From: Coleofasciculus chthonoplastes F2-STO-03
Lineage (GTDB): Bacteria; Cyanobacteriota; Cyanobacteriia; Cyanobacteriales; Coleofasciculaceae
Assembly: GCA_040222015.1 (NCBI GenBank)
Contig: JAVJWO010000026.1
Span: 1-43,992 of the forward strand
Direction of reading: 5' to 3'
DNA length: 43,992 bases
The position numbers and the translations under genes were made by a program. This document shows, one piece after another, positions 31,531-39,211 of this stretch (position 1 is the stretch's first letter; the number at the start of each line of letters is the position of its first letter). The notes below the pieces were generated by a model. The model was not told the origin of the DNA and did not search any database. It was given only the letters and a program-made list of their open reading frames with translations.

Positions 31531-33051
31531 TTATTGATTCTGTTTTTTAGATTGTGGTAAAGTTTGTTGAGTATTACCCGACAATTTTGCTGTCTTATTA
31601 CTATCACCCTGAATGAGCTTCTTCATGCATCCGGCAATTGCACCTCGATTCTGCATTACAGAGGTGTAACCTTTGGTAATGACTGCTCCTGTAACACCAA
31701 AAATCAGGCTCAAAAGTAGCGATTGAGTCAAGGGATGAAGATGATTTGTGGAAAAAGGAGGTAATATTGGCTGTCGGGGTTCTGTGGGAATTATGTATGG
31801 AGCGACGGTAGCGCCAACGGCTGATGTAGCTAAACCTACACCGACGATAGCTACAGTATCTTGTAAAGCGCGATCGCGTTCGGCTTGTTCTGTTTCTACG
31901 ATACCTCGACTCGCTTCAATCATCTGCCCAAAAAGTTGCTGACTTGGCATCAGATAAAATAAATCAGTGCTAATTTGTGGAATAAAGTTGTCTTGAGTGT
32001 CTTTAATAAGTTGTTCTAAAAAATCTAGATTATCCCGATTTTGAATGCCAATATCTTGGAGTTGCTTCAACCAGAATTTATAATTTATAATATTAGTTTC
32101 AATCGTCGTGCGATGAAATTCCATATCTCGCATATAGTTGGCGTATTCAAAAGCAAGTGTAGGAATTTCAGTTAGCCATTCTTTGAGTTGCTTTAGCTTA
32201 GGGGTTGGTTCAGATGGCAACTGACGGAAGGCTTTTGCTTTCACCTCTAATTTTCTGTAGAGAAGCCGTGCTTTTTGATTACACCACCGGGATTCTGAGT
32301 AGGCATATAAAATTTTATGGCGACAACATAATAAATTAATGAGGGATTGATAATAATCTCCCGCAGCTTCTAATGTTGCCGTTTCCGGGTGACAATTAAG
32401 CCAGATAAGAATATGACAATGTTCAGTCGGATGCTCTCGGTTATTTTCATATTCAAAAATAGGACTTCCTAAAAAGATGCCTTGAGTAGGTGGAGAACGT
32501 AAAAATTGTTCAACCTCTGATTTAGGTAGAATTGCAGCTAAACAATCATTGGCAAACTCTTGAATATCCTGAATTTGACCTTCTGGGTGGGCAAAAAATA
32601 CAAGAGTTTGTCCCAGAGAAGCTTTAATTTGACTGGGAAGCAGACAACCTTGAGGATTTAAGCCCTCCAATTGATTAACGTCTACATTGGGATAGGGATA
32701 ACGTAGGGTAATATCAACAGCATAGGTATCATGAATTTGTAGAGGATAGACTTCGCCTCGAAGTTGAAGTTTACTTCCTTCAGGGATAGCAGAGAACTTT
32801 AGAGTATTTTCAGGTTGTAATAATTCCAGATATCTTGAGTTATCTTGATTGGAAGATACACCGATTTGACCGTTACTCTCTTGAAGACGCTCAATTAGGG
32901 ATTCTAGTCTAGGAACATGAAGTTTTTGTCCAATTCGCTGACATTCCTCCCATAAATGATTTGCGTTATTGACGGGTTCATCTTCACCTTGAGCTAAGTT
33001 GTTTCGCAGATGAAAAGCGCAAAGAGTCAATTTTGGATTAGCAACTTTCAT
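31531..33051 (-). CDS. 506-aa protein with C-terminal coiled coil and two TM helices; candidate CATRA-like membrane effector
   Basis: ATGA overlap with the upstream gene; TM segments VAIVGVGLATSAVGATVA and LLLSLIFGVTGAVI. Family is inferred. Confidence 0.7.
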   Translation of the reverse strand: MKVANPKLTLCAFHLRNNLAQGEDEPVNNANHLWEECQRIGQKLHVPRLESLIERLQESNGQIGVSSNQDNSRYLELLQPENTLKFSAIPEGSKLQLRGEVYPLQIHDTYAVDITLRYPYPNVDVNQLEGLNPQGCLLPSQIKASLGQTLVFFAHPEGQIQDIQEFANDCLAAILPKSEVEQFLRSPPTQGIFLGSPIFEYENNREHPTEHCHILIWLNCHPETATLEAAGDYYQSLINLLCCRHKILYAYSESRWCNQKARLLYRKLEVKAKAFRQLPSEPTPKLKQLKEWLTEIPTLAFEYANYMRDMEFHRTTIETNIINYKFWLKQLQDIGIQNRDNLDFLEQLIKDTQDNFIPQISTDLFYLMPSQQLFGQMIEASRGIVETEQAERDRALQDTVAIVGVGLATSAVGATVAPYIIPTEPRQPILPPFSTNHLHPLTQSLLLSLIFGVTGAVITKGYTSVMQNRGAIAGCMKKLIQGDSNKTAKLSGNTQQTLPQSKKQNQ

Positions 33052-34172
33052 GAAGCAGACTTGGATGATTGAGAATCTTTTGAGTCAGAACTTTGTTGAA
33101 TGGCATTGAGGATAGCTTGTTTGTTAAGTTCGTAATTGGGAGGTTTTACTTTGCCTTCTTTGCTCCCAGGTGCTTTTTCTGATGAATTGTCGGGCAGAAG
33201 TTTCAATTGCGCTTCATCAATTTCAGGGTGTTGTTCACACCATATTGAAATCGCTTCAGACAGTTCTTCAATATCATCGGGTAAAGGAGCCAATAGCTGT
33301 TCTAATTCAGCCAAGTATCCTGATGAAAATAGCGAATATTGCTCAGTCAATAATTCGATAAAAGCATCGACATTTTGCTCAGGGAATGACAAAAAGCATC
33401 GCCTACATTTATTTACTGTTTTTTGGACAATTTCCAGAGGTAAATCTAGGGCGTGGGCAATTTGCTCTAAATCTAACCCCATTGGCAGCAGTCTGGGGAT
33501 AGTTTCTAATTTCATTTCTAGGAGAGTGTCCTGATAAAATCGGGTTTGTTTGATTTCGCTTAATCCCAACATAGCAGCTATCTCCTCGCGGCTTTTTTTC
33601 GGTAATTTGTAAACGATAATGGTTTCAATCAGATTAATAAGTTCACGTTGGATTGTTTCATCTGTTAGCTGTTGCCGTGCTTTTTCGATTAACTGTCTTG
33701 CCAGTTGTCCGGCTGTCTCTTCCGGCTCAATTACAAGTTTAACAACTTCTACCCCTAATGAGCCTTCGACAGCTTCACCTAATTCATCCAGGTAAATTTG
33801 TCTCACCTGGTTCAGGGCTAAGAGGTTCCCAAAATGTAACGTCTGTTCTCGTTCAATACGGCGGTTGGGATAGATTACGACAATTTGCCAAGGATAGGGT
33901 GGCTGGTATTGCCTTAAAAAAATGAAGAGTTCGGCAAATATGCGGTAGTATAAGCCAGCATCTGGCTGAAACTGAACTTCAACCAGATATAAAGGTTTGT
34001 CAGGTTCGCTGGTTTTGGGTAAAAATAAACCGTCTAAGCGAAAGGATAATTGTTTGACTTCGCGGGAGGTAAATTCATAGCTATCGGCTTCTTCTGGAGG
34101 ACGGTTAATCAGCTCAAAGAAGATGCCGGGAAATGTCAGAAATAGGTTATAGAAGATACTGTCAGTTTTCAC
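33048..34172 (-). CDS. Rpn/DUF2887 PD-(D/E)XK nuclease fused to an extra ~110-aa C-terminal domain
   Basis: MKTDSIFY, FRLDGLF, VEVQFQPD; the normal Rpn end (LEQIAHALDLPLEIV) is followed by an additional helical domain. Confidence 0.9.
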   Translation of the reverse strand: MKTDSIFYNLFLTFPGIFFELINRPPEEADSYEFTSREVKQLSFRLDGLFLPKTSEPDKPLYLVEVQFQPDAGLYYRIFAELFIFLRQYQPPYPWQIVVIYPNRRIEREQTLHFGNLLALNQVRQIYLDELGEAVEGSLGVEVVKLVIEPEETAGQLARQLIEKARQQLTDETIQRELINLIETIIVYKLPKKSREEIAAMLGLSEIKQTRFYQDTLLEMKLETIPRLLPMGLDLEQIAHALDLPLEIVQKTVNKCRRCFLSFPEQNVDAFIELLTEQYSLFSSGYLAELEQLLAPLPDDIEELSEAISIWCEQHPEIDEAQLKLLPDNSSEKAPGSKEGKVKPPNYELNKQAILNAIQQSSDSKDSQSSKSAS

Positions 34173-34175
34173 GGG

Positions 34176-36920
34176 TTATTGACCGATGGCACAAAATGCA
34201 GCCCAGTAGTAGGGAGACTCAAAGGGTTTGCTATTAGGGGGTTGTTTACTGAGGAATGCTCTCAATTGCATTCTATGATTAGGATTAGACAGTTGCTTGA
34301 CCCACTGCTGTAACTCTTCTTTTGTAGCATCCCGGAGCCAAGTTTGGGCTTGGTTGAGGGCAACAGGGACGGTTGATCCTGATTTAAGATTCTGATAGAA
34401 CCGGATTATTAACAAGGCTGTAGAGAGTTCATTCACAGTCCACAGAGAACAGACAATGCTGGCAGTACCTGCAACTAAAAATCCATGGGTTAAGCCAATG
34501 TACTCATCCGTGGCGGATGGGTCTGTCAATCCTGTTTCGCAAGCAGATAGAGTGACGAGCCGACATTGGCTGAGGTCAAAGGTAAATAGCTCTAACACAG
34601 TAAGGTATTTGCTGAAAGCAGTAGCTGGGTCATTTTTTGGGGAAATGTGGCAATCAGCCAGATGTAGTTTAGAAAGCAGAGGGCGTTCAAAGTCGAAGTC
34701 GCCGTGACAGGAAAAGTGGATACAGTGGGCAGTTTGGAGTTGCTCGTTGTCAATAGCTGATTTTTTGGCATTGTCTTTGACAAGGATGTGACTGCTATGG
34801 AAAGACTGCTTAATGGCTTCGACTTCTATATCACTGTAGTCAAGGTCTTTTGTCGGGTTTTGAATGGCAAAGAGGTGGGTAAAATCAGGGCGTTGTCGGC
34901 TTTGAGCTAGTTGTAGCACTTGACAACTGGGAGCATAATGCACACCTCTAGGAAATTTGTCTAAAAGGCACTTACTCTTCTCGTCGGGTAAAGATAAAGC
35001 ATGAAGAGGAAGTATGTGCAAGGACTGATGGGGAATCAGAATTATCCTATCGCAGGTGTCTGGTACATGGGTAAGGATCTCATTTAGGTGCAGAATCTCA
35101 GCGAGGCGATTGAGACGGGATTCTAGATGATCTCGCCAAACTTGTTTAGAAGATTGATCATAGTACCCCAAAACATAGTCCTGGAAATACTCATTGCCCC
35201 AGGATTGAAAGGTTTCTCTATCTTCTGGATCAGATTGCCAAACAGTAATGCCAGGGCTTTGATGAGTAATGATGAAGGTAACAAATATATCATCCAAGAT
35301 GTACCACTCGATGAGGGCGGTTTGATTATCGGGTAGTAACGCCTGAATCTCCTCAAAGAGGATACCTTTTACCTGTTGCGTAAGGTTGAAACTGGGGTCG
35401 TGGGGTTGGATTTTCTCAGCAATAAAGGAATCGAGCTGTTCTTTCAACTTGTTGCTTTCTTCCTGAAATTGATTAAGCTGGGTGCGATAGCTCTCATCTG
35501 ATTCCCTATTTTGCACATCTCGCATATCTAGTAGATTTTGTCTTTTAGAGATTTCTTGGCGGAGGCGCTTATATTGATTACGGATATCTTCTGAGACACC
35601 TTTGGGTTCGAGGTTCTCTGAGGCGAGGAATTTGACCAAATTACGGGCTTTATTGCGCTCAACATATTCAATAGCTTTGGTTAGTTGACTATCATTGATA
35701 CAGGCTTTAACCATGCCGCAGTAAAGATCAATTCCTGACTGCTGAATCTTTTGGCGCTGAGCATCTGTTGTAGCCCAAATGTTAATTTGCTGCTCAAGTG
35801 CTTCAATAGCAATACCATATCCCTCGATAGCTTCCTGCCAACGGCGATTGCCAAGAGCCACATATCCAAGACTACGTCCTTTGTTGCAGCAATCTTCAGG
35901 ATATGCAGTGGGTGTGAAGATTTTTAGCGCTAACCGAAAACAATCAATTGCCTGGTCAATGTTTCTTTCGTCGCTGTAGGTAAGACCTAGACTATTTTGA
36001 GTCTGCGCCCACTCATAAGTTTTCTCGGTATAGACTTCTAGAGCTTGCTTACAGCAAATAATTGCCTCCGCAGTCTTTCCCATTTTGCGATAGACACCAC
36101 CTATATTCTGTTTAGTCCTTGCCCAATCATCGGGAGATTCATCTTTGGGAGTGCCTTGCAACGCCTTCTCATAAGCAGCGAGCGCCAAATCCAGATCCTT
36201 ACGTTCGTCTTCTGGACTTTCTTGACTCTGGCTACGACTACAGTAAGCATTTCCCAGACGATTTTGGAGCATTGTCCACTTATCACGAAACCTTGTAGAA
36301 AATACTTCTGGAGGGTATATTTTTAAAGCGGATTCCAAAGTAGCGATCGCTACTATTGATGAAGCGATCGCTTCATCAATCCGTCCTTGATTACAATAAG
36401 CAATTCCCAGAAGGTTTTGGCTCATTAACCAATTCGTTAGAGATGCTTCGCGAGTAAACACGGTGGTAGCTACTTGGCAACCCGTGATAACAATTTTCCA
36501 CTTAATTTCTGGTTTTATCCGTGGAAATTGCGCTATGTAAGTGCAGAAATCATGAATAAGTCCGGCAATTGTTTGGGCTTCCTCTGGTTCCACGGTTGAT
36601 AGCTTGGCTTTTGCCCAACTTCGTAACATTTTAGAAAATTTATCATCCAGTTTATCTAAATTAGATTCCAATAGTTCTTCCCCTTGTCGTCGCTGATCCT
36701 TGATGTCTTTGTCTTTTATGCGTCTGATTGTCTGCAATGCTTCATTCAAGAACTCGTAATAAGCGTTACGGTTTGGTTGTCTAGGGTTAAATGTTAACTC
36801 TGGTAAATTATCGTGCCACTCCGGAAAAAAGAGATCACTATCGGCGGGTATCAGTGTAAACCGCTCCTGAAGTTGAGCCATATTAGTAATCGTTTGAGAA
36901 ATGGCTAGAGATTGACTCAT
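34176..36920 (-). CDS. TPR-CHAT (caspase-like) protease
   Basis: WA.TQN.LG TPRs, IPHQSLHILPLHAL, HFSCHG, LSACETG, SLWTV, PYYWAAF. Confidence 0.95.
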   Translation of the reverse strand: MSQSLAISQTITNMAQLQERFTLIPADSDLFFPEWHDNLPELTFNPRQPNRNAYYEFLNEALQTIRRIKDKDIKDQRRQGEELLESNLDKLDDKFSKMLRSWAKAKLSTVEPEEAQTIAGLIHDFCTYIAQFPRIKPEIKWKIVITGCQVATTVFTREASLTNWLMSQNLLGIAYCNQGRIDEAIASSIVAIATLESALKIYPPEVFSTRFRDKWTMLQNRLGNAYCSRSQSQESPEDERKDLDLALAAYEKALQGTPKDESPDDWARTKQNIGGVYRKMGKTAEAIICCKQALEVYTEKTYEWAQTQNSLGLTYSDERNIDQAIDCFRLALKIFTPTAYPEDCCNKGRSLGYVALGNRRWQEAIEGYGIAIEALEQQINIWATTDAQRQKIQQSGIDLYCGMVKACINDSQLTKAIEYVERNKARNLVKFLASENLEPKGVSEDIRNQYKRLRQEISKRQNLLDMRDVQNRESDESYRTQLNQFQEESNKLKEQLDSFIAEKIQPHDPSFNLTQQVKGILFEEIQALLPDNQTALIEWYILDDIFVTFIITHQSPGITVWQSDPEDRETFQSWGNEYFQDYVLGYYDQSSKQVWRDHLESRLNRLAEILHLNEILTHVPDTCDRIILIPHQSLHILPLHALSLPDEKSKCLLDKFPRGVHYAPSCQVLQLAQSRQRPDFTHLFAIQNPTKDLDYSDIEVEAIKQSFHSSHILVKDNAKKSAIDNEQLQTAHCIHFSCHGDFDFERPLLSKLHLADCHISPKNDPATAFSKYLTVLELFTFDLSQCRLVTLSACETGLTDPSATDEYIGLTHGFLVAGTASIVCSLWTVNELSTALLIIRFYQNLKSGSTVPVALNQAQTWLRDATKEELQQWVKQLSNPNHRMQLRAFLSKQPPNSKPFESPYYWAAFCAIGQ

Positions 36921-38316: not shown

Positions 38317-38838
38317 ATGCCACGAACACAGCGTAACGATAACTTTGTTGACAAAACCTTCACGGTAATGGCAGATATAATTCTTAAGGTTTTGCCGACT
38401 AACAAGAGAGCGAAAGAAGCGTTCGTCTATTACCGAGATGGGATGTCGGCTCAGGGAGATGGCGAATATGCCGAAGCGTTGGATAATTATAAGCAAGCGT
38501 TGGAGTTAGAAGAAGATTCCTACGATCGCAGCCTGATTCTGTACAATATGGGGTTGATTTACACCAGCAACGGTGAGCATGAGACAGCATTAGAGTACTA
38601 CCAGCAAGCTCTCGACTCTAATCCCCGTCTTCCCCAAGCGCTGAATAATGTTGCTGTTATTTACCATTTCCAAGGAGAGAAGGAAAAGGAAGCGGGAAAT
38701 GATGAAGCCGCAGAAAAGTTGTTTGATCAAGCCGCCGACTATTGGAAACGAGCGATTCGTTTGGCTCCTAATAACTATTTGGAAGCCCAAAACTGGCTAA
38801 AAACCAGTGGACGTTCAGCTATTGATATCTATTTTTAG
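38317..38838 (+). CDS. ycf3: Photosystem I assembly protein Ycf3
   Basis: [34 protein letters not shown]. Confidence 0.98.
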
Positions 38839-38844
38839 TGTTCG

Positions 38845-38915
38845 TCATTTGTCATTTGTCATTTGTCACTGACTAGGAAAGAATCAACAATCAACAATCA
38901 ACAATCAACAATCAA
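38845..38915. repeat. STRR clusters (TCATTTG)n and (AATCAAC)n
   Basis: Direct inspection; similar clusters at 10258-10291, 12886-12911, 14018-14045 and 15636-15676. Confidence 0.85.
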
Positions 38916-38917
38916 TC

Positions 38918-39211
38918 ATGATTGACCTAGAACAAGTTCGCAAAGTCGCTAATCTGGCGCGTTTGGAGTTGACTCCTGAAGAAGAAGAGCAATTTTTGCC
39001 GCAGCTTAATAGCATTTTGGAATACTTTCAACAGCTTAGTGAATTAGATACGGAAAATGTTCCGCCAACGACCCGAGCAATTGATGTTAGTAATGTGACC
39101 CGATCCGATCAACTGCAACGGTATCCGGAGCGGGATGCTTTATTGGCAGAATCTCCTGACCAAGATGGGGACTTTTTTAAAGTGCCGCAAATCCTCAGTA
39201 CGGAAGAGTAA
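38918..39211 (+). CDS. gatC: Asp/Glu-tRNA amidotransferase subunit C
   Basis: [29 protein letters not shown]. Confidence 0.97.

What the first reader, a model, noticed from the sequence alone, without database searches (positions are those of the whole stretch)
33048..33380. Rpn/DUF2887 nuclease fused in frame to a ~110-aa CATASP-like domain
Seen: after the normal Rpn terminal HTH (MGLDLEQIAHALDLPLEIV) the ORF continues into EQNVDAFIELL...DDIEELSEAISIW...SSEKAPGSKEGKVKPP...LNKQAILNAIQ, that is helices, an exposed loop and a final helix. Known: Rpn proteins have been described as antiphage toxins held in check by C-terminal small proteins made from internal starts. Inference: an rpn gene replaced the 5' end of the operon's small middle gene, so the nuclease or its internal antitoxin may now be under protease control. 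The EKAPGS loop is a candidate cleavage site.
Basis: partly seen in the sequence, partly recalled or inferred. Interest (0 to 1): 0.74.

Follow-up and report, generated by a model that had tools for sequence, protein, structure and literature searches.

The report
Nuclease fused into protease defence operon
In this cyanobacterium a toxin-antitoxin nuclease gene (Rpn) is fused in frame to the whole small middle gene of a three-gene operon (caspase-like protease, small protein, membrane protein), and the fusion keeps a short loop that the protease likely cuts, which would offer a direct test of whether a protease can switch on an Rpn nuclease.

Summary
Observation confirmed. Rpn/DUF2887 (374 aa) ends in a 110-residue tail that is a complete copy of an unnamed cyanobacterial small protein: 118 of 137 relatives are 140 aa or shorter, and 40 of 62 non-Rpn, non-CHAT copies whose surroundings I read sit in TPR-CHAT / small / membrane-protein operons. 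The membrane protein is weakly CorA-like. The tail is not Pfam CATASP. Tailed Rpns form one clade (one fusion, not many), and 31 of 41 lie outside the operon, five of them in this genome. The [R/K]-x-P-G loop is kept in 32 of 55 operon copies (9 of 10 Rpn fusions) but only 5 of 53 others; this is not significant after correcting for kinship. Best reading (0.5): the tail still does the operon's job as a likely protease substrate, probably made from the conserved internal Rpn start, while the nuclease keeps its own antitoxin control. A cut at K333 would remove only 41 residues, and solo copies lost the site but kept the nuclease. Protease release of the nuclease is not excluded (0.22). No binding, cleavage or expression evidence was obtained.

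The parts
34176..36920 (-). TPR-CHAT caspase-like protease, 914 aa; catalytic His739 and Cys794 intact; likely sensor-protease
   Evidence: PF12770 E 1e-52 and TPR families; dyad invariant in 18 CHATs
33048..34172 (-). Rpn/DUF2887 fused to the small operon protein, 374 aa; starts 3 nt after the CHAT stop
33573..34172 (-). Nuclease domain (residues 1-200); D4, D47, E65 and Q67 invariant in 19 aligned fusions; dN/dS about 0.11
   Evidence: that these residues are catalytic is recalled from PD-(D/E)XK and Rpn knowledge
33570..33587 (-). Predicted internal start of the small antitoxin form: GAGGAG, 9 nt, ATG (Met201); product would be 174 aa, about 19.6 kDa, and include the tail
   Evidence: GGAG-N9-ATG in 27 of 27 fusions where the site was located; position
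33390..33392 (-). TTG (Leu261) at the position of the standalone gene's start Met; possible second internal start, with no conserved ribosome-binding signal
   Evidence: ATG or TTG in 13 of 14 long-junction fusions
33198..33386 (-). Four-helix core of the captured small protein (residues 263-325)
   Evidence: AlphaFold model; 54% identity over 103 columns to unfused L071
33162..33179 (-). EKAPGS loop (residues 332-337); Lys333 is the candidate P1 residue
   Evidence: R 61% / K 24%, P 59%, G 61% in 111 aligned rows; context counts; cleavage is inferred
33096..33128 (-). Final helix (residues 349-359), kept in operon and solo copies
31531..33051 (-). 506-aa membrane protein with no Pfam family; weakly CorA-like helical stalk and two C-terminal hydrophobic segments; predicted effector

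Best explanation
An rpn gene is fused in frame to the whole small middle gene of a TPR-CHAT / small protein / CorA-like operon, and the tail likely still serves that operon as the protease's substrate, while the nuclease probably stays under its own internal antitoxin. Shown: gene order, full-length homology to standalone middle genes, intact protease and nuclease motifs, purifying selection on every part, a single clade of tailed Rpns, and loop retention mostly in operons. Inferred steps: (1) the abundant product is the 174-aa form from Met201, which is both the Rpn antitoxin and the operon's small protein; (2) when the TPRs sense infection, CHAT cuts after Lys333 and frees the last helix; (3) the cut small protein stops restraining, or activates, the CorA-like membrane protein, which kills or arrests the cell; (4) the Rpn rides in the cassette as a second defence or addiction module that does not need the cut. 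Tailed Rpns that left the operon kept the helical core and lost the loop.
For: Standalone homologues: 118 of 137 hits are 140 aa or shorter (a few are fragments of fusions). 40 of 62 non-Rpn, non-CHAT copies read in context have CHAT upstream or the membrane gene downstream. The window tail is 54% identical over its length to unfused L071, whose operon has the same order and the same 4-nt overlap. In 9 of 10 in-operon fusions the Rpn holds the only small-protein copy between CHAT and the membrane gene and keeps the motif; the exception, L080, lacks the motif and has a separate middle gene. Pooled dN/dS in 8 in-operon fusions: nuclease 0.11, core 0.21, loop 0.18, motif 0.10; in 8 solo fusions: nuclease 0.10, core 0.22, loop 0.51. 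So the nuclease is kept equally well with or without the site. The cassette is missing at this site in 3 of 3 congeners where both flanks lie on one contig (gap 2.0-3.0 kb against 6.8 kb), as expected for defence cassettes. Precedent for small caspase substrates: EACC1 (10.1101/2025.11.14.688446, section read).
Against: No cleavage, binding or expression data. The motif-operon link rests on few independent events: 8 pairs, 3.5 the same way, 0.0 opposite, p 0.25. 23 of 55 operon copies lack the strict motif, including all 5 CHAT-fused copies. Four solo Rpn fusions and one solo standalone gene keep it. L046 keeps it although its CHAT is broken and its membrane gene truncated. The CorA likeness is weak (Foldseek E 0.0024; Z 12.2, rmsd 2.3 over 121 helical residues, inside the range of chance helical matches). 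dS is near saturation and the loop aligns poorly in solo copies. On the Rpn tree the in-operon group is nested among solo copies, so the fusion may have formed outside and entered the operon later.
Confidence: 0.5

Rival explanations
1. Protease-released nuclease: CHAT cuts the tail on the small antitoxin form, the core loses its last helix, the antitoxin falls apart or lets go, and the full-length Rpn cuts DNA as a second effector beside the membrane protein.
For: The predicted antitoxin form carries the site. The last helix is conserved even in solo copies, so its loss could destabilise the domain. Nuclease and site are both under purifying selection in 8 in-operon fusions; such fusions come from 8 genomes in 3 genera. 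A short-junction tailed Rpn stands directly behind a different CHAT in L080, from another branch of the tree. How Rpn toxins are released is stated to be unresolved (10.1101/2023.05.02.539157, Discussion).
Against: The cut would lie about 75 residues beyond the Rpn HTH and remove only 41 residues. 27 of 31 solo tailed Rpns lack the site yet keep the nuclease. Tailless Rpns manage without it. The same paper suggests release rather than degradation of the antitoxin. L080 has no motif.
Confidence: 0.22
2. The helical core is an adaptor that binds other copies of itself, like the effector-associated domains of multicellular bacteria, and so ties the nuclease, including solo copies elsewhere in the genome, to the CHAT system.
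For: The domain is modular: at the N- or C-end of CHAT, behind CorA-like membrane proteins once or twice (P0148, P0110), behind a bacterial Death-like domain (L144). The core stays constrained in solo Rpns (dN/dS 0.22).
Against: Several genomes with solo tailed Rpns show no other copy at E <= 1e-20 (G131, G194, G092, G064, G135, G167, G001), though more distant copies could be missed. No EAD or Death-like Pfam family matched any of 109 members.
Confidence: 0.15
3. Passenger fusion: the loop is only a flexible turn inherited by descent, nothing cuts it, and the tail has become part of the antitoxin's fold.
For: One origin explains much of the pattern by kinship; the pair test is not significant; motif variants without a basic residue are common in operons.
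Against: The motif has dN/dS 0.10 in operons within a low-confidence loop. It recurs in unfused operons from several families, while 21 of 22 solo non-Rpn copies lack it.
Confidence: 0.13

Closest known systems
Rpn long/short gene-within-gene toxin-antitoxin systems (10.1101/2023.05.02.539157)
   Same: Rpn family match, conserved internal ATG with ribosome-binding signal, C-terminal HTH, variable four-residue repeats in relatives
   Different: An extra 110-residue domain taken from a protease operon; this copy has no four-residue repeats; it sits behind a CHAT protease. In that paper's main text 'fused' and 'cyanobacter' occur 0 times.
CATRA ternary system (TPR-caspase, CATASP PF20271, CATRA-N/C PF20269/PF20270)
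   Same: TPR-caspase plus small protein plus large partner (layout recalled; the defining paper was not held); the membrane gene's Atlas neighbours include a CATRA cluster at 0.88 (a lead only)
   Different: No match to any of the three profiles; the family was found only within one cyanobacterial order
Protease-activated effector modules EACC1, Pepco, MBL nuclease, alpha/beta hydrolase (10.1101/2025.11.14.688446)
   Same: Small gene tied to a caspase-like protease and sometimes fused to it; MBL is a precedent for a nuclease switched on by cleavage
   Different: No sequence match; all-helical; cleavage not shown; here the candidate site is at the far C-end and not inside the nuclease
CorA-family channels
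   Same: Top fold hit for the downstream gene in two searches; two C-terminal hydrophobic segments
   Different: Scores are weak and limited to the helical stalk; no CorA Pfam hit; transport or pore function untested

Membership tests
Rpn / DUF2887 | Profile match above cut-off | tested here: met
   PF11103 271.6 bits; TIGR01784 95.7 against 52.1
Rpn / DUF2887 | PD-(D/E)XK-type acidic residues intact | tested here: met
   D4, D47, E65, Q67 invariant in 19 of 19 rows; the catalytic assignment is recalled
Rpn long/short toxin-antitoxin | Internal start signal before the C-terminal domain | tested here: met
   GGAG-N9-ATG in 27 of 27 located sites, kept through four different preceding residues; sequence signal only
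Rpn long/short toxin-antitoxin | Variable four-residue repeats after the internal start | tested here: inconclusive
   None in this copy; present in varying number in relatives
Rpn long/short toxin-antitoxin | Small form is made and blocks the toxic long form | not testable with these tools
   Needs proteomics and assays
CATASP (PF20271) | Profile match | tested here: not met
   No hit for the tail at E <= 1 or for 47 relatives at E <= 0.001; not among the 25 of 48 families shown for 109 members at E <= 0.05; 0 of 21 genomes, though no control genome rang
CATRA system | TPR-fused caspase with intact dyad next to a small gene and a large partner | tested here: met
   the layout of CATRA itself is recalled
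CATRA system | Partner carries CATRA-N and CATRA-C | tested here: not met
   No hit at the gene; CATRA-N in 0 of 301 phylum genomes, no control rang
CATRA system | Remote homology of the partner below profile level | tested here: inconclusive
   Atlas cosine 0.88, 174 shared features; no CATRA sequences were on hand for a profile-profile test
CorA-like membrane proteins | CorA fold | tested here: inconclusive
   Foldseek E 0.0024; Z 12.2, rmsd 2.3, 121 aligned, helical only
Protease-activated effector modules | Site-specific cut by the linked protease turns on toxicity | not testable with these tools

The most novel reading that the evidence does not exclude
A toxin-antitoxin nuclease acquired a protease trigger by capturing the substrate gene of a caspase-like defence operon: its gene-internal antitoxin now carries the cut site, so one infection-sensing protease sets off both a membrane effector and a DNase. 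This would be a defined release mechanism for an Rpn toxin, and solo copies would show that control being shed again.
Probability: 0.22. Interest if true: 0.85.

Novelty: new variant of a known kind. Interest (0 to 1): 0.57.

Why it matters
How Rpn toxins escape their internal antitoxin is stated to be open. This locus gives a candidate trigger with a named protease, site and products (a 41-residue, 4.3-kDa piece), and natural controls: unfused operons, solo fusions with the loop and solo fusions without it. Apart from the fusion, the host operon is a common, unnamed cyanobacterial three-gene cassette: the small gene matched in 53 of 201 genomes of the order, the membrane gene has at least 521 relatives with no family name among the 120 listed, and neither hits Pfam, NCBIfam or PADLOC.

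Tried and rejected
CATASP and CATRA membership by profile: no hits. Several independent fusions: rejected for my sample, 31 tailed against 17 tailless nuclease domains split 100/99; the tailless rows came from only 4 genomes, and the tail tree gives 69/69. Chimera idea (front half from solo Rpn tails, back half from the resident gene): not needed for the window, since unfused operon genes such as L071, L074 and L076 match along the whole length; L046 alone looks chimeric. LEMKL start: not conserved. Internal promoter scan: 0 sites, 1.3 expected. RNA: no RNA holder listed. Fold searches of the fusion model: nothing clear for the tail, which was barely tested; no solved relative by sequence (best E 0.37). 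Atlas search of a standalone member: unnamed cyanobacterial clusters only, 0.87-0.88. Earlier findings of this scan: none. Paper searches listed no paper describing this fusion or this operon; subscription journals, the defining CATRA paper and bioRxiv supplements (for example the Rpn paper's gene tables) could not be seen and may list such proteins.

Full report
Observation. On the minus strand lie TPR-CHAT (34176-36920, 914 aa), Rpn (33048-34172, 374 aa) and a 506-aa gene (31531-33051). The Rpn starts 3 nt after the CHAT stop and its stop overlaps the next ATG. PF11103 covers residues 3-202 and TIGR01784 2-251; the last 110 residues and the 506-aa protein match no Pfam, NCBIfam or PADLOC family above cut-off. 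The model shows four confident helices (263-325), a low-confidence loop (329-346) and a last helix. Named relatives are Coleofasciculus and kin.

The tail is a whole gene. Against 1.84 billion representatives it found 137 proteins: 118 of 140 aa or less, 14 of 141-250 and 5 longer; 10 carry Rpn parts. The match usually begins at residue 5-7 of the small protein and runs to its end. In 111 aligned rows W47 is 98% conserved and the loop has R or K (85%), then P (59%) and G (61%) at the EKAPGS position. I read the surroundings of 108 distinct copies (duplicate places and one locus without a domain hit were dropped; 'operon' means CHAT upstream, the membrane gene downstream, or fusion to CHAT). 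Of these, 62 are fused to neither Rpn nor CHAT (40 in operons, 22 not, one of the 22 being a Death-like-domain fusion), 5 are fused to CHAT and 41 to Rpn (10 in operons, 31 not). Unfused L071 is 54% identical along the whole tail, with the same gene order and overlap. This genome has another unfused operon on C119 (profile E 1e-19). The family matched in 53 of 201 genomes of the order and in 3 of 121 drawn from the class, all three within the order.

It is not CATASP by profile, and the membrane gene is not CATRA-N/C by profile. The membrane gene's best fold hits are CorA channels, weakly, and its Atlas neighbours include a CATRA cluster at 0.88. I therefore call the cassette CATRA-like in logic, not a member.

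History. Junction-spanning matches occur in three families of the order. Thirty-one tailed nuclease domains form one side of a branch against 17 tailless ones at 100/99; the 41 tails do likewise at only 69/69. One origin fits; the outgroup came from 4 genomes. Long-junction fusions keep the small gene's start position as ATG or TTG in 13 of 14 rows, so the whole gene was appended. The nine in-operon fusions with the motif come from 8 genomes of 3 genera in one family. They are nested among solo copies, which would fit entry into the operon after fusion; but solo L018 and L067 show decayed operon-type loops or ends, which fits repeated exits. The order is unresolved. Three congeners lack the cassette at this site; two others could not be judged.

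The loop. A strict motif ([RK]xPG, [RK]GP or [RK]G[IQ]G; my definition, set after seeing the first data) is in 21 of 31 operon and 5 of 44 other copies of the first set, and in 11 of 24 against 0 of 9 in a set fetched afterwards: 32 of 55 against 5 of 53. Kin-corrected, 8 pairs give 3.5 the same way and 0.0 opposite, p 0.25. Pooled pairwise dN/dS for the loop is 0.18 in 8 operon fusions and 0.51 in 8 solo ones, while the nuclease is 0.11 and 0.10 and the core 0.21 and 0.22 (pairs are not independent, and solo dS is near saturation). The five paralogues in this genome share the core at 53-64% identity and lack the loop motif. A cut after a basic residue would suit a metacaspase-like specificity (passage in 10.1101/2023.06.23.546230), but EACC1 is cut at an aspartate, so P1 is a guess.

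Internal starts. GGAG, 9 nt, ATG precedes Met201 in 27 of 27 located sites and survives changes of the preceding residue. By analogy with E. coli Rpn this would give an abundant 174-aa antitoxin that here includes the tail. The TTG at Leu261 has no conserved signal. No RNA data bear on this.

Mechanism. The site tracks the operon and not the nuclease, and a cut at K333 leaves nuclease, HTH and core in one piece. The likeliest reading is that the tail still does the middle gene's job for CHAT and the membrane protein, and that Rpn keeps its usual control (0.5). Release of the nuclease by damage to the antitoxin form remains possible (0.22) and is the reading worth testing. An adaptor role (0.15) is suggested by fusions to CHAT, to membrane proteins and to a Death-like domain. 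A passenger fusion gets 0.13. Anti-phage function is inferred from the families, not shown.

Papers. 10.1101/2023.05.02.539157: first quarter of the text, passages and Discussion. 10.1101/2025.11.14.688446: passages and the EACC1 section. PMC8195603: passages. 10.1101/2023.06.23.546230: passages. The paper defining CATRA was not held; its layout is recalled. Searches listed nothing on this fusion; supplements were not seen.

Verdict. Interest 0.57.

Noticed in passing
window 36792-36920 (-): The first 43 residues of the CHAT ORF are 93% identical to the start of a separate 210-aa HSDR_N-like ORF that precedes the CHAT in L007, so a deletion probably joined a remnant of that gene to this CHAT.
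   Followed up: partly
L144:1510-2349 (-): Bacterial Death-like domain 1 (PF20689, E 7e-7, residues 47-136) fused in front of the small domain, directly downstream of a membrane-gene homologue.
   Followed up: partly
P0148, P0110: Membrane proteins ending in one (P0148) or two (P0110) motif-less copies of the small domain after their hydrophobic segments.
   Followed up: partly
L038-L041; L042, P0088: Small domain fused to the C-end of TPR-CHAT, with an MGAGG loop, upstream of the membrane gene; or to the N-end of a second CHAT protein.
   Followed up: partly
L080:3651-5236; own genome C5, C17, C136: Other small genes fill the same slot between CHAT and distant membrane-gene homologues; the L080 one aligns weakly to the family (probability 57%).
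   Followed up: partly
L023, L029, L030, L035, L049, L053, L055-L057, L148, L153: A clade of motif-less standalone copies, often next to the same neighbouring gene, which suggests a settled second role without the protease.
   Followed up: no
L007 / L046; L003: Decaying cassettes: CHAT in pieces and membrane gene truncated (L007), or membrane gene with an internal deletion (L003), while the Rpn fusion is intact.
   Followed up: no
own genome C47:59862-60149: A fragment of a solo-type tail lies near what looks like a CRISPR locus with repeats and a WYL-like gene (labels by eye).
   Followed up: no
window about 38830-38925: Short dispersed repeat between the Ycf3-like gene and the gatC-like gene, matched 43-64 times per genome in 5 congeners (gene labels recalled).
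   Followed up: no
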